Shown: positions 52,006 to 61,038 of the stretch, in pieces
Numbering within the stretch: the first letter of the stretch is position 1
Layout of the letters: each line of letters begins with the position of its first letter
Assembly (NCBI GenBank): GCA_963717525.1
Contig: OY970343.1
Location: 512,001-576,000, forward strand
Origin: an uncultured Methanoregulaceae archaeon
GTDB taxonomy: Archaea > Halobacteriota > Methanomicrobia > Methanomicrobiales > Methanospirillaceae
Length of the DNA: 64,000 nucleotides
Reading direction: 5' to 3'
The notes under the pieces: generated by a model
Seen by the model: only the letters and a program-made list of their open reading frames with translations
Database searches by the model: none
What the model was told of the DNA's origin: nothing
Made by a program: the position numbers and the translations under genes

Positions 52006-52992
52006 TTACCGGTATTTTTCCTGTTCCAGCATCGTATCGGCAAGAACAAGCGCGAGCATCGCCTCTGCCACCGGGAGGATACGGGGCACGATGCAGGGGT
52101 CGTGCCGGCCGCCGACCGTGATCTCCACGGCGTTCCCGTGGATGTCCCGCGTCTGCTGGACCTTTGCGATGGAGGGCGTCGGTTTTACCGCAATGCGCAC
52201 GACGATATCCTGCCCGGAGGAGATCCCGCCGAGGATACCGCCCGCGTGATTGCTTTTAAAACCGGTGGCGGTCATCGGGTCATTGTTCTCGCTTCCGAAC
52301 CTCCCTGCGACCGCAAACCCGTCGCCGATCTCCACGCCCTTGACTGCACCGATCCCCATCATGGCGCCGGCAATTGCCGCATCAAGTTTCCCGAAGACCG
52401 GGTCGCCGAGGCCTGCCGGGCAGCCGGTTGCGATAATCTCCGCGATCCCGCCGACAGAGTCCCCGGCCGCCTTTGCCGCGAGGATCTCCTGTTCGATCTC
52501 CTTTGGTACGGTTTTGCCATGCACGGACATGATCCGGCCGGTGATAGCGATCCCCCGTCCGGCAAGGTACTTCAGTGCCACGGCGCCGGCCGCAACCCGG
52601 CCGACAGTCTCCCTGCCCGAGCTCCTGCCACCCCCCCGGTAATCCCGGATACCATACTTTTCCTGGTACGTGAAATCCGCGTGACCGGGCCGGAACTTCT
52701 CTTTGATCGCCTCGTAATCCTTCGACTGCGTATCCCTGTTTCTCACCAGCAGCGCTATGGGTGCGCCGGTCGTCATCCCTTCGAACACACCCGAGAGGAT
52801 CTCGACCGTGTCGGCCTCATCCCGCGCGGATGTCAGAGAAGATGTGCCCGGCCGCCTTCGGTCGAGCAGCGGCTGGATATCAGCCGCCGTTAATGCGAGC
52901 CGGGCCGGGCACCCGTCGATGACCGCGCCCACGGCCGGGCCGTGGCTCTCTCCAAAGGTCGTGACTGCAAAATTCCTGCCAAAGGTGTTCAT
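52006..52992 (-). CDS. aroC: Chorismate synthase
   Basis: [24 protein letters not shown] and GRHDPC motifs. Confidence 0.96.
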
Positions 52993-54377
52993 GCCAGTAT
53001 CTCCCGTATGACGGTATCGGGCACGTCAATCCCGAAGAAGAGCCGGAACTGCTCCCGTGCTTGGTGGATAAAAACCTCGGTACCGATAATGGTTGCGCAG
53101 CCGGCTTTCCGTGCTGCGGTGATCAGGGGTGTGACCGGGGGTGTGTACACAAGATCAAATACGGTCATCTCCTTCTTGAGCTGATCGTCCCGGAGCGGGC
53201 TTTTCGTGTCCGGCTGCATGCCAACCGGTGTGGCGTTCACAACAAGGTCAGGGTTTGTCCGGTCAAAGTCGTCCCATGCGCCCCACCGGCAGCCGGACCG
53301 CTCCGCGAGCGCCCGTGCCTTCTCCGGCGTCCGGTTCAGGATGGTGACCTCCATGCCGAGATCCATAAGGGCATACGCGGCCGCTGCTGCAACCCCACCA
53401 GCGCCGAGCAGTACCGCACGGGCACCTTTGTGGCCGGCGAGGGGTTTTTTGATGCCCAGCCAGTCCGTGTTACAGCCGTATGCTTCCCCGCAGGCGAAGA
53501 CCACCGTGTTTATTGCACCGATCTGCCTGGCCGCGTCATCGATCTCGTCAAGGCAGGCCATCACGTCCTGCTTGAAAGGGATGGTTACCGAGAGCCCTTT
53601 CGCATCGATGCTGCGGGCAGTCTCCATGATGGCGCTGATTGACGGGTCCTCGAACCGGGTGTAGTGGCAGTCGAGCTGGTATTTCTCAAAGAGCCGGTTG
53701 AAGAGGAGCGGGCTCCTGCTGTGGCCGCAGGGCCAGCCGGCAACTCCGAGGAACCGGGTCCGGGGATCATGGCCGGGACCGGTGAGCAGGGACTGCAGCT
53801 GTTCGCGTTCAGGTGCCGGGAGGGGGGTTGCCGCAAACCACTTTGCTGCTGCCTCCCGGACCGGGGCAGGGATCGTCCCGTGTTCCAGCAGGCCGAGGAT
53901 CCGGCCGGCCGCCTCTTCGTTTGTGGTCCGGCTGGTATCCACGCAGAAGTCTGCCGCTGCGGCATAGTTGTGGCGCCGGCGGGCGATCACCTCTGCGATC
54001 TCCTGATCCGCAGGAAGGCTGGTGAGAGGCGGGCGGGGGGCCCGGGCGAGCCTGCGCCTGATGGTCGCGATCTCTGCGGTCAGCAGCACACAGGTACTTT
54101 GTGCCCTGAGGTGCTCCATGTTTTTAGGGTCCATGACCACGCCGCCCCCGGTGCCGATCACGATGTCACGGGCAGGGAGCCCGGCGATCGCCTCACGTTC
54201 CAGCGTACGGAAGCGCTCCTCATCGTCCTTCCTGAAGATCTCCGGGATCGTGCGACCGCTCTGCTGTTCGATAAGTGCATCGGTATCGAGGAAGGGTACA
54301 CCCAGCCTGCGGGCGAGCACCGTCCCGATGGCGGTCTTGCCGGTCCCGCGGTAGCCGAAGAGCACGATCCGCCTCAT
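52989..54377 (-). CDS. aroE: Shikimate kinase (AroK-type) fused to shikimate dehydrogenase
   Basis: [15 protein letters not shown] and RPPL, then HSRSP, SVTIPFK, GAINT, NTD, GAGG, NRT, NATPVGM and DLVY motifs. Confidence 0.9.
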
Positions 54378-55639
54378 TCCATCACCCCGGCAAGTGCGTC
54401 CCAGAAACCGGGATAGGATTTGGCGACGCATTCCGCGCCGGTGATCGAGACCCCGCCGATCCCGAGACCAAGGACGGCAAAGCTCATCGCCATGCGATGG
54501 TCGTTTGCCGGGTCGATGGTGCCGCCATGGAGCAGGGCCGGCTGGATGATGATCCGGTCTTCATGGGTATTTACCGTCGCGCCAAGCTGCCGGAGTCGTT
54601 CCGCGGTAACGGCAATGCGGTCGCTCTCCTTGTACTTCAGGTGGCCGATGCCGGTGATCACCGAGGGGGTCTTTGCCACCGCTGCCACCATGCAGAGCGT
54701 CTGGACCGTGTCGGGAGCCGAGGACATGTCGATGGTGATCCCGGCAAGCTGCCCATCGTGTTCGATCATGACACTGTCATGGGCATAGGTCACCTGGCAG
54801 CCCATCCTCACGAGTGCAGAAAGGAAGAACCGGTCGCCCTGCACGGAGTCCGGGGTGAGGCCGGTCACCGTCACTCTGCCGCCACAGATAGCCGCGAGCG
54901 CAAAGAAGTACGAGGCCGACGAGTAGTCCCCTTCGATGACGTACGTGCGGCCGGTGTAATGGTTGCAGGTGCTAACCTCGAACCTCCGGTATCCTTCGCG
55001 CCGGATAACCGCCCCAAAACCGGTCATGACACCGGTCGTGATGTCGAGGTACGACTGAGATGCGGGAGTTCCCGTGATCTCTAATGAGACCGGGTTTTTC
55101 GCGTAGGGGGCGGCCATCAGGACCGAGGATGCGAACTGGCTGCTCACCGATCCGTCTATCGTGGCGCTGCCGCCACGGAGATTGCCGCCGATCGTTACCG
55201 GGGGGAACCCGGGCTTTTTTGGAAACCTGATCTCCCCCCCGAGGACTGTAAGCGTGTCGGCAAGCGGCCCGACCGGCCGCTCCTGCATCCGGGCGCTGCC
55301 GGTGAGAGTGACCGGGTGATCCGCGAGGAGCGCGGAGGAGGCGAGCAGGCGCAGGGAGGTGCCGGAGTTATTAAGGTCAAGCACCGTGCCCGGGGGGCAG
55401 GTGAATGCCCCGTCACATCCTTCCACGATCACACTCCGGTCATTGGTTTTTATATCGGTGCCAATCTTTTCAAGGGCGGCGATCGTGAGTTGTGTGTCGT
55501 CGGCCATGAGCGGGTTGACGATGGTACTTGTGCCCTGTGCGAGTGCTGCCGCGATGAGGGCACGGTGCGTGTAACTCTTGGAGGGCGGGGCAGCGACCGT
55601 AAGGTCGATACCGCGCCGCAGGGGGAGGGTGACGATCAT
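54374..55639 (-). CDS. aroA: EPSP synthase
   Basis: PPSKSYTHR, NSGTSLR, SSQF, EGDYSSA, KESDR and DHRMAM motifs. Confidence 0.95.
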   Translation of the reverse strand: MIVTLPLRRGIDLTVAAPPSKSYTHRALIAAALAQGTSTIVNPLMADDTQLTIAALEKIGTDIKTNDRSVIVEGCDGAFTCPPGTVLDLNNSGTSLRLLASSALLADHPVTLTGSARMQERPVGPLADTLTVLGGEIRFPKKPGFPPVTIGGNLRGGSATIDGSVSSQFASSVLMAAPYAKNPVSLEITGTPASQSYLDITTGVMTGFGAVIRREGYRRFEVSTCNHYTGRTYVIEGDYSSASYFFALAAICGGRVTVTGLTPDSVQGDRFFLSALVRMGCQVTYAHDSVMIEHDGQLAGITIDMSSAPDTVQTLCMVAAVAKTPSVITGIGHLKYKESDRIAVTAERLRQLGATVNTHEDRIIIQPALLHGGTIDPANDHRMAMSFAVLGLGIGGVSITGAECVAKSYPGFWDALAGVME

Positions 55640-56430
55640 GGCGGCACCCTGATTTCCGGGTAGCATCCCAGGTTACGGACCGTGGTGATCTCTTTTAGTT
55701 CCCGGAGCGCCTCGTCCGTGCACCCGCTGACCGCGTAGTCAAGGAAAAAGACATATTTTCCCATGCCCCTTTTTGACGGCCTTGACTCGATCCGGGTGAG
55801 GTTGATCTTCTTCCTGGCAAAGACGCCAAGAAGGTCGTAGAGCAGACCGGCCCGGTCGGTGTCGGTGTCGATCAGGATGCTGCACTTTCCCGCCCGGCAG
55901 TCCGGGACGGATGTCTGCGAGATCCTCACAAACCGGGTCGTGTTCTCCGGGTTGTTCTCCACATGTTCAACGATCACCGGGATGTGGTAGATAGCGGCTG
56001 CCGAGACCGAGAGGATCGCCCCGGCGTTCGGGGTCTTTTTGGCCTCGATCGCGCTCGACGCGTTGCTGCTCGTATGGATCACCGGCACCTCCCGCCACTG
56101 CTCGATCCACCCGCTGCACTGCTCGTGGGTCTGCGGGTGAGCGTAGATCACGCGGATCTTTTCGAGCGGGACAAGGGAAGCGAGGCTATGGTGGATAGGC
56201 ATGTACATCTCCGCGGTGATCGAGAGGGGGTATTTGGTCAGGCCGTCAAGGGTCTCGCCCACCCCGCCGGCCTCGGAGTTCTCGATCGGGACGATGCCAT
56301 CTCCCCGCCCGGCTGCTACGCCCGCAAAGATGCTGTGGATGGTCGGCTCGAGAATAACGGGTTCGCACCCGAGCCGGAGCGCGAGCTCGTGGGAGAACGT
56401 CCCTTCGGGGCCGAGGGTGATGACGGTCAT
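55636..56430 (-). CDS. pheA: Prephenate dehydratase with ACT domain
   Basis: LGPEGTFS, VPIENS, HPQ, NTTRF and NLTRIESRP motifs. Confidence 0.93.
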   Translation of the reverse strand: MTVITLGPEGTFSHELALRLGCEPVILEPTIHSIFAGVAAGRGDGIVPIENSEAGGVGETLDGLTKYPLSITAEMYMPIHHSLASLVPLEKIRVIYAHPQTHEQCSGWIEQWREVPVIHTSSNASSAIEAKKTPNAGAILSVSAAAIYHIPVIVEHVENNPENTTRFVRISQTSVPDCRAGKCSILIDTDTDRAGLLYDLLGVFARKKINLTRIESRPSKRGMGKYVFFLDYAVSGCTDEALRELKEITTVRNLGCYPEIRVPP

Positions 56431-57257
56431 TTCTTCACCATGCACTCTATCAAAGCGTCGGTGAGCTCCAGCCCGCGTTCGCAGTAGGTGCCGAGATGCC
56501 GGGTGTCGCGGGAGAAGAATTCGGCAAACGCTGCAGGATCACCGCCCTGGACGATCTCCGAGAGTTCCCCGGCTGCCGACCGGCACGCAGCGAGCACCCC
56601 GGGCACAAACGGGTTTTCCTGGAGTATATCGGCATAGAGCGCCGGGTCCTGAGAGAGAGCCGGCCTACGAGCGAGAGCTCGATCTGGTACACCGGGCTCA
56701 TGAACGGTCCGGTCTTCCCTATGTCAATGCCCAGCCGTGCGGATGGAGTCAGCCATGCATATCGTGACAAAGTGGGTGAGCCCCTGGACGATGGCCATCA
56801 TCCGGTCGTGCTCCTCCGGTGTTGCGATCGTGCAGACGGCCCCCTCGTGCAGGAAGATTCCCCTGAGGTCGGAAAGCATCGTCCCGGTTATCCGCGCCGG
56901 GCACATGATGATGGTCTGGCGTGCAATGGACGAGAGCGTCGGCCCGAACATCGGGTGGAGCCCGATGACCTGAGCCTCCGACTTAAGCATCGCCGCGACG
57001 GGGGCTACCTTGAGCGAGGTAAAATCGCAGAGAACCTGGTCTTTTCCGAGGAGCGGTGCGATCTCACCGATGACCCGCACGGTGTCGCGGATGGGCACAG
57101 AGACAATGACGAGATCGCAGGTCTCTGCGATGTCAGCATTCGTTACCGCTGTCGAACGCCCCGAGACTATCATCTCGTAGCCCGCCCGCTCAAAGACCGG
57201 GGCGAAGAGCTTTCCCATCTTCCCGGTGCCGCCGATGATGCCTGCCTTCATGTTCAC
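56427..57257 (-). CDS. tyrA: Prephenate dehydrogenase, frameshifted
   Basis: IIGGTGKMG, DFTSLK, HPMFGP and EHDRMMAIVQGLTH; C-terminus in other frames, ending IECMVKK*. Confidence 0.88.
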
Positions 57258-58241
57258 TTCTCGCGTATCGTCTCTTTGACCGGCATGCCAAAGTGCCTGC
57301 CGCCTTCGAGCGCACAGCCGAGGATCGTATGTCCCGGCGCAAGGTTCACGACCGAGATCGCACTCCCGTCGGGAGCCACGAGCCGGATCGTCTCTGCGTT
57401 CTGGAGGATCAGGCTCGCCTTGGCCCCTCCTCCCTCTGCCTCGACAAGGAGCAGTGGCCGGCGCTCGATTTTCGTCCTGCCTACAATAGCGGAACGGGCG
57501 GTGCCCCGGTGGTCGGCCACCAGCACCTGCCCCCCGATGGAGAGATCGGAGAGGTACGCGGTCTTCCCGTCAGGCATCAGGATGTATGCATGCACCGCGC
57601 CGGCGTTCACCCGGAACGGGCGGGGCGCGACGTACGGGTTTTCGAGCGTTTCGGCATGCACGAGGAGCATGGCAGACGAGGTGTTCCCCATCAGCATGCC
57701 GTCGCCATCGGCAAGCATCGAGCAGGTGTCCACGCAGACCCGGTCGCCCATGCCTACGGGCTGGATCTTTGTGACCGTGAAGGGTATGAGCTGCACGCTT
57801 CCGGAGGCGTTTTTTATGAGCGCCGCGACCGCCTTTACGACTGCGGGGTCTGTGGTTTTGAGGAGGATCCCGAACACGCCTTTTTCAAGAACGTGGAGAG
57901 CGAGCTCCGCCTCGTGAACGTTCTTTACGGCCGCGACGATCTTGTCCGACTGCGCGACCAGGTTTTCGAGCGGGATGACCGTCCAGTCGCTTGTCGTGAC
58001 GATGACGATCCGGTTCTTACCCTTCTGTGCCGCCTCGTTCTCGCTTGCCTTGTCGGTGATCGTGCACTCGATCACGTCTTTGCCCGGGAATGCGGTCGCC
58101 GTCAGGTGCGACGGTTGTTATCCGCCCGAGTCTTTTAACATCCCCGGCCCGGTCAGCCACGACCGCATCCGCACCGCTCTCGATGGCGGTCGTCACGATC
58201 TCCTTGTTCCACGGCCGGGCATCCACCCAGAACTGCTTCAT
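57254..58241 (-). CDS. aroB': 3-dehydroquinate synthase II (AroB'), frameshift near 58080
   Basis: DWTVIPLENL, GDRVCVDT, RPFRVNAGAVHAY, LQNAETI and GRHFG motifs. Confidence 0.9.
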
Positions 58242-59024
58242 TTATTGCTTCTCCAGCGCTTTCTTCGGGTCGACGTTGTGGTGGACAACGCGGCAGATAG
58301 ACTGGACAAAGGCCCGGGTATTGTCGCGCTGGAAGGCGTTCCTCCCCATGCAGACCCCGGCACCCCCGGCTGCGATCGATTCGCGGATCATCTCGAGCGA
58401 TTCAAGGTCGCTGCACTTCTCGCCGCCGGCGACAAAGACCGGCACCGAGCAGGCTTTCGTGATCCGGGCAAAGGCCTCGGCACTTCCCGGGTAACTGGTC
58501 TTTATCATGTCAGCGCCGAGCTCTTCTGCCACCCTGACGCACTGCCCGATGGTCTGGGGCGAGGTGGGGTCGATGCCCTTGCCCCGCGGGTAGATCATGA
58601 CCAGGAGCGGCATGCCCCAGCGGTTGCAGTCCCGGGCGATCTTCGCGCCGGACTCGAGCATCTTCGATTCGTTCGGGGCCCCGAGGTTGATGTGGATGGA
58701 GACCGCGTCGGCGCCAAGCGCGATGGCCTCTTCTACGGTGCAGACGAGGACCTTGTCGTTCGGGTCCGGGTTGAGCGAGGTGCTGCCCGAGAGGTGCACG
58801 AAAAGCCCGATGTCCCGGCCGTGCCGCCGGTGTCCTCTCTTGACCATGCCCTTGTGGAGGACGATTGCATTTGCCCCGCCCTCGCTCACATCAGTGATGA
58901 CTTTTGTCATGTCCAGGAGGCCGTCAATCTGGCCCATGGAAAACCCGTGGTCCATGGGAATTATCACGGCCCTCCCTGTGTTCCTGTCGATAATCCGTTC
59001 GATCCTGATATCCTTTCCAATCAT
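58242..59024 (-). CDS. DhnA-type class I aldolase, ADH synthase (AroA') paralogue 2
   Basis: PMDHG, YPRG, AEELGADMIKT, AGG and GRNAFQ motifs; alternative start 59042. Confidence 0.85.
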   Translation of the reverse strand: MIGKDIRIERIIDRNTGRAVIIPMDHGFSMGQIDGLLDMTKVITDVSEGGANAIVLHKGMVKRGHRRHGRDIGLFVHLSGSTSLNPDPNDKVLVCTVEEAIALGADAVSIHINLGAPNESKMLESGAKIARDCNRWGMPLLVMIYPRGKGIDPTSPQTIGQCVRVAEELGADMIKTSYPGSAEAFARITKACSVPVFVAGGEKCSDLESLEMIRESIAAGGAGVCMGRNAFQRDNTRAFVQSICRVVHHNVDPKKALEKQ

Positions 59025-59034
59025 GATTTCAACC

Positions 59035-59826
59035 TTATCCATTGAGAATCTTCAGCGCCTCTTCGACGCTCTTGTTCTGGTGCACGATACACGCTGCTGC
59101 CCGGACGAACTTGTCCGGCATCCGGTGCTGGAAGGCGTTCCGGCCGATCGAGATCCCGGCCGCACCGCCCGCCATCGCGCCTTCAATCAGTTCCAATGTT
59201 GTGCGGTCATCCGTCTTTGAACCTCCGGCGACCACGACCGGCACCGGGCAGCCCCGGGTCACTTCGCGGAAGGACTCGGGATCCCCGGTGTACACGGTTT
59301 TCACGATATCGGCCCCGAGCTCGGCTGCCACCCGTGCGGCGAGCTTCACCTGCTCGACATCGTTCTCCTTCTTGATATCTTTGCCCCGCGGGTACATCAT
59401 CGCGAGGAGCGGCATCCCCCATTCCATGCACTCGACCGCCACGTGCCCGAGGTCCTGGAGCATCCGCGCCTCGGACCCGGCCCCGATATTGACGTGCATC
59501 GAGACCGCGTCGGCGCCCATCTTCAGCGCGTTTGTCACCGAGTTTACGAGCACCTTCTCGTTCGGGTCCGGCCCAAGCGAGGTGGATGCCGACAGGTGCA
59601 GGATGAGCCCGATGTCGCGGCCACCCTGCCGGTGGCCGAAGAGGGCGAGACCCACGTGGCCGATCACCGCGTTTGCCCCGCCGTCCGCGACCAGGTTCAC
59701 GGTCTGGCCCATGTCGATCAGGCCGGGGATCGGCCCGTTCGACACCCCGTGATCCATCGGTACGATGACGGTCTTTTTCGTATTACGGTTCATGATTCTT
59801 TCCAGACGAATTTCTTTACCTCTCAT
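59035..59826 (-). CDS. aroA': DhnA-type class I aldolase, ADH synthase (AroA') paralogue 1
   Basis: [26 protein letters not shown] and GRNAFQ motifs. Confidence 0.88.
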
Positions 59827-59876
59827 AACAACAACTCCCCCTCCAGCCCTGATACAACAACCAGACGTGAAGGGAA

Positions 59877-60023
59877 TTACCGGTACCGGGGATAATACCC
59901 GAAACCGAAAAAGCCAAAAAAGCCAGAAACGCGATAGCCGATGCTTCTCGCGTTTACGCTTTCAGAAACGGCATTACTGATGCTAAAGATGGGTGCTGCG
60001 CTTTCAGAGATAAAGACATTCAC
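59877..60023 (-). CDS. Putative Phe/Tyr-rich leader peptide of the aromatic amino-acid operon
   Basis: GTG at 60023 opens [48 protein letters not shown]; stop is 50 nt before the aroA' ATG; true start uncertain. Confidence 0.65.
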
Positions 60024-60088
60024 GAGGGAAAAAACCCTCACGGGCGCTGTTGCACTCTTCCTGCATGATTATTGGTTGGAGCCGGGGG

Positions 60089-60097
60089 TATATAATT
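60089..60097 (-). promoter_or_regulatory. Candidate TATA box for the aro operon leader
   Basis: AATTATATA on the minus strand; a second candidate CTTTATCT lies at 60015..60008. Confidence 0.45.
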
Positions 60098-60261
60098 GTG
60101 CGTGCTAAGGAGTAGCATGGTGGGGGGAACCGGCCCATTTTATGGGCCAATCTCTCTTTTTCATATGAATCTCAAAATTTTCATTAGAATGTGAATAGCA
60201 TTATTAAATTATAATATTATCAAGTAAAATTTTGATTCAAAATCAAAACCAATTAAACAGA

Positions 60262-61038
60262 TTATAGATCTTTCCTTTTACTCCAAAGAAATTTGGCCAA
60301 TTGAATTCTTCCTTTATTTTTTGAATAATCCGACATATATATCGGTACCATTCGTATCATCTTTTCAAGTATTCTATAGAAAAATTTTTCAGAAATCGAT
60401 TTGATTATTAATAAAAATAAAAATCCCTTGAAAGTTTCATCTGGCCTAGAACATATTGAAGAATCCCAAATAAACAATCCAATTATTGTATCCTTTTTCT
60501 TATCAAAACCCAAGTCACTTAAATCTTCAACATTGATAAATAAATTTTCCATCATTTTTTTTAATAATTCTGCATTTAAAGACAGATAATACAGAATTAA
60601 ATTAAAAACAGCTGCAATAATACAGAAAATTGCTGAAGTATATGACATCAATTCAGAGAGATGAAAATAAAATGATCCTATGGAAATAATGAATAATGCA
60701 GGAATTATGCCTAAAGTAAATATTGCATCAAAATAACCAAAAATACTGCCAGAAATTTCTATGGATTTTCTCAGTCTAATTAAATGAGGTAATGATTTTT
60801 TTTGGGGATCAAATTTTTTTATATAATCTCCGCATTCAAAAATTTTACGATAATAGTCGTAATTCGAAGGAGATTTGTATTGCTGTTTTAGAGATTGTGG
60901 GGCTTTTAAAACAATGTTGGAGTATAATCGAATAAAATCTGCTCTAACGTTTAATTTCTCTTCAATTCGAAAAATAAAATTACATAGGTATCGATTTAGA
61001 CGATTAGTACAACTATCACAGTTGGTGTTATAGTCCAT
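60262..61038 (-). CDS. Very AT-rich hypothetical membrane protein
   Basis: 258-aa ORF with two central TM helices; composition strongly unlike the flanks. Confidence 0.65.
   Translation of the reverse strand: MDYNTNCDSCTNRLNRYLCNFIFRIEEKLNVRADFIRLYSNIVLKAPQSLKQQYKSPSNYDYYRKIFECGDYIKKFDPQKKSLPHLIRLRKSIEISGSIFGYFDAIFTLGIIPALFIISIGSFYFHLSELMSYTSAIFCIIAAVFNLILYYLSLNAELLKKMMENLFINVEDLSDLGFDKKKDTIIGLFIWDSSICSRPDETFKGFLFLLIIKSISEKFFYRILEKMIRMVPIYMSDYSKNKGRIQLAKFLWSKRKDL

What the first reader, a model, noticed from the sequence alone, without database searches (positions are those of the whole stretch)
59877..60023. Phe/Tyr-rich leader peptide upstream of an archaeal shikimate/Phe/Tyr operon: candidate ribosome-mediated attenuator
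Seen in sequence: the long 5' region of aroA'-aroA'-aroB'-tyrA-pheA-aroA-aroKE-aroC holds a same-strand ORF ending [20 protein letters not shown]. Eight of the last 14 codons are Phe or Tyr and none is Trp. This matches an operon that makes Phe and Tyr but carries no trp genes. The stop lies 50 nt from the first ATG. Possible starts are GTG 60023 (48 aa), GTG 60041, or ATG 59974 if one G is missing (giving [14 protein letters not shown]..., 32 aa; single-base losses are common in this assembly). Established knowledge: bacterial pheL, pheM and trpL leaders sense charged tRNA through runs of cognate codons, and archaea couple transcription and translation. Archaeal aromatic biosynthesis is mainly described as controlled by DNA-binding regulators such as TrpY. 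Inference: this ORF is a dual Phe/Tyr sensor. To my knowledge it is not described in methanogens, but I cannot check the literature.
Basis: partly seen in the sequence, partly recalled or inferred. Interest (0 to 1): 0.9.

Follow-up and report, generated by a model that had tools for sequence, protein, structure and literature searches.

The report
Archaeal Phe/Tyr leader with frameshift sensor
In front of the aromatic amino acid genes of this methane-making archaeon and its relatives lies a small two-part reading frame that ribosomes can apparently complete only by slipping one base at a phenylalanine or a tyrosine codon, which would make it an amino-acid shortage sensor of a design not found in the papers searched.

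Summary
The Phe/Tyr-rich frame is real and conserved, but the proposed starts look wrong and no base is missing. An ATG at 60066, at promoter distance from a TATA box, opens a 20-codon frame. That frame holds two sites six codons apart: (C/U)UU-Phe and (C/U)UU-Tyr. A +1 slip at either enters the Phe/Tyr frame, which stops at the foot of a hairpin before aroA'. Of 127 relatives' loci, 102 have this layout, in 25 genera and with 28 lengths. One more has the sites but a broken frame. The other 24 lack the sites and have the tail in frame with the ATG (starts set by hand); a tree gives five such switches. Best reading: an amino-acid-sensing leader entered by a starvation-induced +1 ribosomal frameshift (0.65). 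Main rival: a GTG/ATG start 8 nt before site 1, present in 102 of 102. Whether the output is ribosome-site release or termination is open. Trp occurs in 54 of 102 tails. There are no expression data. Ten paper searches found no description. The scan noted similar leaders on other DNA before (unchecked AI notes).

The parts
60102..60118 (.). Inverted repeat (TGCTA-N5-TAGCA) just upstream of the TATA box; likely binding site of a separate transcription factor
   Evidence: found in 26 of 27 loci of this genus and in few others; similar repeats seen by eye before many aroA' homologues of other classes
60089..60095 (-). TATA box (inferred)
   Evidence: Sequence. A TATA-only pick found the same ATG in 94 of 102 shift-type loci. 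The start site of transcription is not mapped
60004..60066 (-). ORF1: 20-codon frame from a probably leaderless ATG (frame 0), ending TGA one codon after the Tyr site
   Evidence: ATG 15 or 33 nt before site 1 in all 102 (69 and 33). Stop 1-2 codons after the Tyr codon in 92 of 102, with all three stop codons used
60034..60042 (-). Purine-rich element before site 1; pairs with the 16S 3' end and holds GTG 60041 in the +1 frame (stimulator, or rival start)
60028..60033 (-). Shift site 1: P-site UUU (CUU in 12 of 102), A-site Phe codon
   Evidence: TTT 90 / CTT 12, then TTC 83 / TTT 19
60016..60024 (-). Second purine-rich element, holds GTG 60023 in the +1 frame
   Evidence: an ATG/GTG/TTG at this place in 96 of 102
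60010..60015 (-). Shift site 2: P-site CUU (UUU in 58 of 102), A-site Tyr codon, followed by C in 100 of 102
   Evidence: TTT 58 / CTT 44, then TAT 86 / TAC 16
59877..60032 (-). +1 frame entered at either site; 51 codons from site 1; predicted trans-frame product 62 aa
   Evidence: Open from site 1 to the tail in 102 loci against a mean chance of 0.22 for shuffled sequence
59880..59921 (-). Phe/Tyr-rich control tail (last 14 codons)
   Evidence: Across 102 loci 49% Phe/Tyr against 3% in the linker
59829..59882 (-). Hairpin that starts at the tail's stop codon; its 3' arm holds the ribosome-binding site of aroA' (59844-59835)
   Evidence: Fold -18.9 kcal/mol, z -1.6. Site unpaired 0.25, rising to 0.65 when 13 nt from the stop are covered
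59035..59826 (-). aroA', ADH synthase, first gene of the operon
   Evidence: TIGR01949 and NF005556 above cut-off
52006..59042 (-). Rest of the operon: second aroA', aroB' (3-dehydroquinate synthase II), tyrA, pheA, aroA, aroK-aroE fusion, aroC

Best explanation
A Phe/Tyr-sensing leader of the aro-tyrA-pheA operon with a two-step, ribosome-based switch. (1) Ribosomes start at the ATG at the 5' end of the mRNA (inferred). (2) With Phe and Tyr plentiful they pass both sites and stop one codon after the Tyr codon, about 125 nt before the hairpin. The hairpin forms and the operon stays low (inferred). (3) When charged tRNA-Phe or tRNA-Tyr is scarce the A site waits at UUY (site 1) or UAY (site 2). 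The P-site tRNA on UUU or CUU re-pairs one base on, at UUU. Either shortage leads into the same +1 frame (layout shown, slip inferred). (4) The shifted ribosome crosses a linker poor in Phe/Tyr, stalls in the Phe/Tyr run next to the hairpin, and melts or prevents it (inferred). (5) This frees the ribosome-binding site of aroA' in most lineages. Where the hairpin lies far from the start codon it more likely prevents early termination (open). Lineages that lost the shift sites keep steps 4-5 with a single in-frame leader. Odds: translated aromatic-amino-acid sensor about 0.9; entry by +1 frameshift, given that, about 0.72.
For: Frame: of 105 loci matching the two-site pattern behind an in-frame ATG, the +1 frame is open for 30 or more codons and ends Phe/Tyr-rich in 102. 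Frame 0 does so in 0 and frame +2 in 1, under the same test. There are 28 different lengths (34-87 codons) in 25 genera of 6 families. Indels in the linker and tail come in threes, those outside do not (nine loci). Natural experiment: all 24 loci without the sites have the tail in frame with an ATG behind a TATA-like box, and none has a (C/T)TT-T(T/A)(C/T) pair in frame in its first 20 codons. The tree puts the shift type at the root with 5 switches, three of them nested among shift-type neighbours with support 0.88-1.0. Site sequence: the P-site codon is only TTT or CTT (204 of 204), while the A-site codon varies synonymously in frame 0 (TTC/TTT, TAT/TAC). No locus with a +1 tail lacked the pattern. 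CUU_U, and UUU_U in a minority, is the release factor 2 shift site, and a slow A site matters for +1 shifts (PMC5009743, passages). The 13 nt before each site pair with the genome's own 16S 3' end at -4 kcal/mol or better in 98% and 90% of loci, against 33% of 499 linker windows. The linker holds fewer Phe/Tyr than shuffles (68 against 117 in 2051 codons). The last Phe/Tyr is within one codon of the stop in 93 of 102. Replicate: all 80 listed pattern hits in named genomes lie before an aroA' homologue, and 50 of the 51 not seen before have the +1 tail. The window's sequence is right.
Against: An ATG or GTG sits in the +1 frame 8 nt before site 1 in 102 of 102, and the +1 frame has no stop between the first ATG and site 1 in any. 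The GTG changes to ATG in 19 loci, 2 of which then pair weakly with 16S (-2.7). In register, the GGUGA element ends further from the shift site than the 3 nt known for +1 stimulators (PMC5009743). Covering the stop freed the aroA' ribosome site by more than 0.2 in only 52 of 108 short-gap loci, and in 32 of 108 under a model that lets upstream RNA re-pair; in that model the window's own site stayed paired. The hairpin is modest: median z -1.95, below -2 in 58 of 126. In 18 loci it ends 26-155 nt before the start codon. Two loci break the frame rule (L048 fully, L047 within the tail; both genomes have aroA' itself in pieces), as does L196 in the replicate. The in-frame starts were set by hand; a blind TATA pick agreed in 15 of 24. 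In E. coli pheL a 15% +1 shift proved incidental (PMC3082878, abstract). There is no RNA, ribosome or protein evidence.
Confidence: 0.65

Rival explanations
1. The Phe/Tyr tail is a separate ORF with its own start at the GTG/ATG 8 nt before site 1 or site 2 (internal initiation, or re-initiation after ORF1). ORF1 gates access to it. Still a Phe/Tyr leader, but with no frameshift.
For: ATG/GTG at -8 in 102 of 102 and a start-like codon at +10 in 96 of 102; no +1 stop upstream; GTG-to-ATG change in 19 loci. Out-of-frame internal starts occur in Haloferax (PMC7261190, passages).
Against: The GTG is kept in 8 of 9 in-frame leaders of genera g7, g10 and g27, where it does not lead to the tail (closed after 5-7 codons in g10), so it can persist for other reasons. 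In the 33 longer leaders the 5'-most copy is lost in 28 while the copies next to the sites are kept. It does not explain why the P-site codon is never ATT or GTT. A ribosome stalled in ORF1 under starvation would cover or block these starts, which runs against a stall-to-open tail (inference).
Confidence: 0.22
2. The +1 shift happens at a fixed rate and only limits how many ribosomes reach the tail; sensing is done in the tail alone.
For: UUU_Y is shift-prone in bacteria without a stop or shortage (PMC5009743, passage). In-frame lineages manage with the tail alone.
Against: The A-site codons are exactly Phe at one site and Tyr at the other in all 102, with synonymous variation. A fixed-rate shift would not need both.
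Confidence: 0.06
3. The U-rich tail is only a termination signal (poly-U, aCPSF1/FttA) and the Phe/Tyr codons are a by-product; or the RNA polymerase, not the ribosome, drops a base.
For: Archaeal termination uses U-rich stretches (PMC8116511, passage). Phe and Tyr codons are U-rich.
Against: The same 42 nt give 6.9 Phe/Tyr in the conserved frame against 2.3 and 1.3 in the others. The frame is fixed to the ATG over 28 lengths. The T runs are short: at most 7, and only 3 at a CTT-TAY site.
Confidence: 0.04
4. The 40-100 aa trans-frame or in-frame product is a small protein with an aromatic, perhaps membrane-binding end that works in trans.
For: The aromatic C-terminus is kept across the order.
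Against: Length varies from 36 to 98 aa and the middle is not conserved. The stop is tied to the hairpin. The content matches the operon's products.
Confidence: 0.03

Closest known systems
Bacterial leader-peptide attenuators with end-product codons (E. coli pheL-pheA; trpL and hisL recalled)
   Same: Short leader frame ahead of a biosynthetic operon, runs of the end products' codons, stop next to a hairpin.
   Different: Archaeal; apparently leaderless; 40-100 codons; control codons at the very end; split over two frames; no conserved antiterminator found. In pheL the +1 shift is at CCC_UGA and is reported as incidental (PMC3082878, abstract). No Rfam leader family matched.
Release factor 2 (prfB) autoregulatory +1 frameshift
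   Same: P-site CUU_U or UUU_U, slow A site, SD-like element just upstream, short zero frame that stops soon after (PMC5009743, passages).
   Different: The A site is a sense codon (Phe or Tyr), not UGA. There are two sites in tandem. The shifted product is not an enzyme; the output is ribosome position on the mRNA. The SD-like element is mostly not at the 3-nt spacing.
ermCL leader frameshift induced by ketolides
   Same: A frameshift in an upstream ORF carries ribosomes into the spacer, which unfolds the structure hiding the next gene's start (PMC5009743, passage).
   Different: There the trigger is an antibiotic; here the inferred trigger is shortage of charged tRNA, with a second stalling run and conserved tandem sites.
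Mycobacterial leaderless polycysteine short ORFs (bioRxiv 10.1101/834739; search listing and start of abstract only)
   Same: Leaderless short ORF at the head of an operon, acting as an amino-acid-responsive attenuator. The 24 in-frame loci look most like this.
   Different: Bacterial, cysteine, and no frameshift in what was seen.
Archaeal DNA-binding regulators of aromatic pathways: TrpY (Methanothermobacter) and Tar (Thermococcus) (PMC6737238, passages)
   Same: Same pathway regulated. A likely factor-binding repeat also sits at this promoter (60102-60118).
   Different: These are proteins acting at the promoter. The words 'attenuat' and 'leader' do not occur in that paper. A very short Trp-codon ORF in the trpY leader is recalled from older literature and was not retrieved.

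Membership tests
Leader-peptide attenuator (pheL/trpL type) | Short upstream ORF rich in codons of the operon's end products | tested here: met
   8 of 14 here; 49% Phe/Tyr over 102 tails against 3% in linkers; operon confirmed
Leader-peptide attenuator (pheL/trpL type) | Coding-type conservation of the leader in relatives | tested here: met
   Open frame over 28 lengths, synonymous Phe/Tyr codons, three stop codons used
Leader-peptide attenuator (pheL/trpL type) | One continuous reading frame from start to control codons | tested here: not met
   Tail is +1 to the promoter-proximal ATG here and in 102 loci; met only in the 24 in-frame loci
Leader-peptide attenuator (pheL/trpL type) | Mutually exclusive terminator and antiterminator hairpins | tested here: inconclusive
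   One hairpin at the stop; no covarying alternative in nine aligned loci, covariation term 0.17; U-rich sequence follows the hairpin in most long-gap loci
Leader-peptide attenuator (pheL/trpL type) | Match to an Rfam leader family | tested here: not met
   Only one weak antisense-family hit, below its gathering score
Leader-peptide attenuator (pheL/trpL type) | Expression responds to the amino acid through translation of the leader | not testable with these tools
   Needs reporters or ribosome profiling
prfB-type programmed +1 frameshift | P-site CUU_U or UUU_U | tested here: met
   204 of 204 sites; no +1-tail locus lacked the pattern
prfB-type programmed +1 frameshift | UGA stop in the A site, sensing release factor 2 | tested here: not met
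   A site is TTC/TTT or TAT/TAC
prfB-type programmed +1 frameshift | SD-like stimulator 3 nt upstream | tested here: inconclusive
   Pairing with the 16S end is enriched, but GGUGA ends 4 nt before the site and sits further off in register; GAGG at site 1 of this genus ends 2 nt before
prfB-type programmed +1 frameshift | Frameshift product shown | not testable with these tools
   Needs mass spectrometry or a dual reporter
ermCL-type frameshift-coupled translational attenuation | Structure hides the downstream ribosome-binding site and a ribosome in the new frame opens it | tested here: inconclusive
   Site mostly paired in 100 of 108 short-gap loci; freed by more than 0.2 in 52 of 108; not applicable in 18 long-gap loci
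ermCL-type frameshift-coupled translational attenuation | Induced by a ribosome-binding antibiotic, ahead of a resistance gene | tested here: not met
   Downstream genes are aromatic biosynthesis enzymes

The most novel reading that the evidence does not exclude
Most Methanomicrobiales sampled use a programmed, selected 'hungry-codon' +1 frameshift as an amino-acid sensor. Two tandem release-factor-2-like sites, one reading Phe and one Tyr, form an OR gate that admits ribosomes to a second, stalling checkpoint. This would be a chromosomal +1 frameshift in archaea and a productive use of starvation-induced frameshifting, neither of which the reviews read here list as shown, inside an archaeal leader attenuator that has reverted to a plain in-frame leader about five times.
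Probability: 0.6. Interest if true: 0.95.

Novelty: new variant of a known kind. Interest (0 to 1): 0.88.

Why it matters
The 2021 review of recoding in archaea (PMC8211752, passages) lists one cellular case, the -1 shift in fucA1, a presumed one in magnesium chelatase, and a few viral ones, one of them +1. The 2016 frameshifting review (PMC5009743, passages) calls the natural use of hungry-codon shifting unclear and describes pheL as the candidate that did not hold up. This leader would give a conserved, compact case of both. It also offers a direct test of whether archaeal ribosomes control operons from a leader, and of how translation competes with aCPSF1/FttA termination, which PMC8116511 (passage) raises as speculation. 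Natural in-frame versions supply ready controls. The pattern also hits named Methanoculleus strain genomes, so cultured hosts exist.

Tried and rejected
Missing G at 59974: rejected by four runs' contigs and by the same offset in 102 loci. Rfam: nothing relevant. RNA runs: no RNA holder listed; this says nothing on expression. Other amino-acid operons in this genome: upstream regions for trpE, ilvC, leuA-like/ilvB, a second HMGL-family operon, two hisG-like genes, argG and hom were read by eye (9 of 10 targets, one had no gene call). No cognate-codon leader was seen. A genome scan for the shift unit behind TATA-ATG gave only this locus and one hit that closes after 6 codons. Other classes of the phylum: none of 40 upstream regions of aroA' homologues had the site pair, and the best Phe/Tyr count was 6 of 14 in one AT-rich locus. 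These homologues may not head the same operon, so this shows only 'not found in those examined'. A conserved long-range antiterminator: not found. The first operator search used a 4-nt spacer and missed the site; redone with 5 nt. The blind TATA pick chose a different ATG in 8 of 102 shift-type and 9 of 24 in-frame loci. A maximum-likelihood tree with bootstraps did not finish; the FastTree tree has weak deep nodes, and g20 is unplaced. Earlier findings by sequence and by place: none. Paper searches with no description of this element; the library lacks most subscription journals. Protein folds and homologue searches were not run on the peptide, as its middle is not conserved.

Full report
Observation. 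On the minus strand a frame ends at TAA 59879-59877, with 5 Phe and 3 Tyr and no Trp in its last 14 codons, 50 nt before the ATG of aroA'. The operon is aroA'-aroA'-aroB'-tyrA-pheA-aroA-aroKE-aroC. It is the only one of 372 TATA-plus-ATG candidates in the genome with 6 or more Phe/Tyr in the last 14 codons, and the best Phe/Tyr case among 4704 upstream frames. The idea that a G is missing at ATG 59974 is wrong: contigs from runs X9, X10, X11 and X5 match the window over that place with no gap (X5 may be the source of this DNA).

What was missed. A TATA-like box at 60095-60089 lies 23 nt before ATG 60066. This ATG opens a 20-codon frame (ORF1, 60066-60004), and the Phe/Tyr frame is +1 to it. 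ORF1 holds two similar units six codons apart: TTT-TTC at 60033-60028 and CTT-TAT at 60015-60010. Each is preceded by a purine-rich element.

Relatives. I fetched the DNA upstream of aroA' for 129 loci from draws of relatives and of the class. Two were dropped for short upstream sequence, leaving 127 from 126 genomes; one further locus held only the second paralogue and was left out. The loci were chosen by the gene, with weight on covering genera, not by the leader. A pick that used only the TATA box and the best Phe/Tyr stop found the final ATG in 94 of 102 shift-type loci (tail +1 in 93) and in 15 of 24 in-frame loci (tail in frame in all 15). With the two-site pattern behind an in-frame ATG, 105 loci matched. 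The +1 frame from site 1 is open for at least 30 codons and ends with at least 4 Phe/Tyr in 14 in 102 of them; frame 0 passes in 0 and frame +2 in 1. The three misses are L048, a true pair whose frame closes after 25 codons, and L073 and L107, chance matches in in-frame leaders. L047 is counted among the 102, but its tail changes frame near the end. The genomes of L047 and L048 have aroA' itself in pieces. The 102 span 25 genera in 6 families and 28 lengths. Shuffled linker-plus-tail sequence stays open with a mean chance of 0.22. Kin are not independent, so I give no P value. All 80 listed lie before an aroA' homologue and are nearly all named as Methanomicrobiales; four bacterial bins carry Methanomicrobiales-like aroA' and look misbinned. 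Fifty of the 51 not seen before have the +1 tail. The other 40 were printed but not scored for frame; one (L216) has a stop inside its tail.

The natural experiment. The remaining 24 loci, in seven genera, have the Phe/Tyr tail in frame with an ATG behind a TATA-like box (36-73 aa). None has a shift-type codon pair in frame in its first 20 codons (starts set by hand, L083 least sure). Several keep the same first codons as the shift type. A FastTree tree of the two aroA' proteins (46 ingroup and 4 outgroup rows) puts the shift type at the root and needs 5 switches: g27, g10+g12, g7, g17+g24 and g20. The first three are nested among shift-type neighbours with support 0.88-1.0; the deep nodes are weak. 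Loss of the sites goes with a return to one frame each time. That is what one expects if the tail is read by ribosomes that began at the first ATG.

The sites. The P-site codon is TTT or CTT at all 204 sites. The A-site codon is TTC or TTT at site 1 and TAT or TAC at site 2, with both variants inside several genera. The pattern imposed these letters, but no locus with a +1 tail fell outside it. CUU_U is the conserved release factor 2 shift site, UUU_U occurs in a minority, and slow A-site decoding matters most for +1 shifts (PMC5009743, passages). The genome encodes tRNA-Leu(GAG) and tRNA-Phe(GAA). ORF1 stops 1-2 codons after the Tyr codon in 92 of 102, with all three stop codons used. The 13 nt before the sites pair with the genome's 16S 3' end at -4 kcal/mol or better in 98% and 90% of loci against 33% of linker windows, though mostly not at the 3-nt spacing known from bacteria. 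The linker has fewer Phe/Tyr than shuffles (68 against 117), and the tail window gives 6.9 Phe/Tyr in frame against 2.3 and 1.3 out of frame.

The rival. The purine element contains GTG or ATG in the +1 frame 8 nt before site 1 in 102 of 102, and a start-like codon before site 2 in 96. An internal start cannot be excluded, and the GTG-to-ATG change in 19 loci favours it. Against it: the GTG persists in 8 of 9 in-frame leaders of g7, g10 and g27, where it does not reach the tail. The 5'-most copy is lost in 28 of 33 longer leaders. And a ribosome stalled in ORF1 would cover these codons just when the tail should be occupied (inference).

The output. A hairpin begins at or within a few bases of the tail's stop in most loci (median z -1.95; below -1 in 101 and below -2 in 58 of 126). 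In the window it spans 59882-59829 and holds the ribosome-binding site of aroA'. The Haloferax ribosome covers 15-16 nt from the P site (PMC7261190, passages), which is 13 nt from the first base of a stop in the A site. Folding only what lies beyond that raises the site's unpaired share from 0.25 to 0.65 here, but by more than 0.2 in only 52 of 108 short-gap loci. When upstream RNA is allowed to re-pair, the gain is seen in 32 of 108 and not in the window. In 18 loci the hairpin ends 26-155 nt before the start codon and is mostly followed by U-rich sequence, which points to termination there; archaea terminate at U stretches, helped by aCPSF1/FttA (PMC8116511, passage). No conserved antiterminator was found in nine aligned loci. 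So the last step is open and may differ by lineage.

Reach. I saw no such leader before nine other amino-acid gene targets in this genome, nor in 40 upstream regions of aroA' homologues from other classes of the phylum. Rfam has no match.

What is known. Ten searches found no description of this element; the library lacks most subscription journals. PMC8211752 (passages) lists no cellular +1 shift in archaea in what I read. PMC6737238 (passages) describes archaeal aromatic regulation by TrpY and Tar. PMC3082878 (abstract) warns that the pheL shift is incidental. The ermCL case (PMC5009743, passage) is the nearest working model. A very short Trp-codon ORF in the trpY leader of Methanothermobacter is recalled, not retrieved. 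No supplements were read. After the analysis I found that this scan had noted like leaders on other DNA: e1-6492365 (an order of methanogens, +1 shift at a Phe codon), e1-5606627 (another methanogen, entry at a Phe or Tyr codon), and in-frame leaders in Archaeoglobi, Woesearchaeota and Bathyarchaeia. They are unchecked notes and are not counted as support.

Verdict. A real, conserved and very probably translated aromatic-amino-acid leader (about 0.9), most likely entered by a starvation-sensitive +1 frameshift (0.65 overall). It works like a leader-peptide attenuator but fails membership of the pheL, prfB and ermCL families on defining features. New variant of a known kind; interest 0.88.

Noticed in passing
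window 60102-60118; also L253, L255, L257, L259, L270-L274, L280-L282, L291: An inverted repeat of the TGCTA...TAGCA type lies at the aroA' promoter in 26 of 27 loci of this genus, in g7, g20, g21 and most g24, and similar repeats lie before many aroA' homologues of other classes. It looks like an old operator of an unnamed factor.
   Followed up: partly
G000:C1:878600-878614: A near match to the same repeat lies about 30 nt before a gene whose start resembles a sugar-phosphate isomerase (label recalled, from no call); 8 matches with up to one mismatch in the genome.
   Followed up: no
window about 58083, and about 56730: aroB' is split into two frames; the window has one base more than each of five relatives shown in full, so this is an insertion, not a loss. 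tyrA also ends early at 177 aa. Probably assembly errors; not checked against reads.
   Followed up: partly
G000:C1 about 1809930-1809950, upstream of trpE: No Trp-codon leader, but a TGTACA next to a TATA-like stretch; TGTACA is recalled as the TrpY box.
   Followed up: no
L067, L068, L071 and the 33-nt leaders of g1, g15, g16, g21: The 18-nt unit was duplicated once more at the 5' end; the extra copy has lost its shift site. The sensor is built from a repeated six-codon module.
   Followed up: partly
L037, L040, L094, L095 and L106-L112: Genera g10 and g12, placed in different families, share the leader's last codons and hairpin and group together in the aroA' tree with support 0.98, which suggests transfer of the operon with its leader. 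The g12 tails have few Phe/Tyr (5-6 in 20).
   Followed up: partly
L097-L099, L103: In g27 and g30 the Phe/Tyr run lies well before the stop rather than at it.
   Followed up: no
window 60262-61038: An AT-rich 258-codon ORF directly upstream has no NCBIfam match and differs in base content from the operon.
   Followed up: no
L007 and L049 (G011): One genome bin holds two aroA' operon starts, each with its own leader; one has a long Ala/Pro-rich linker that keeps the +1 frame.
   Followed up: no
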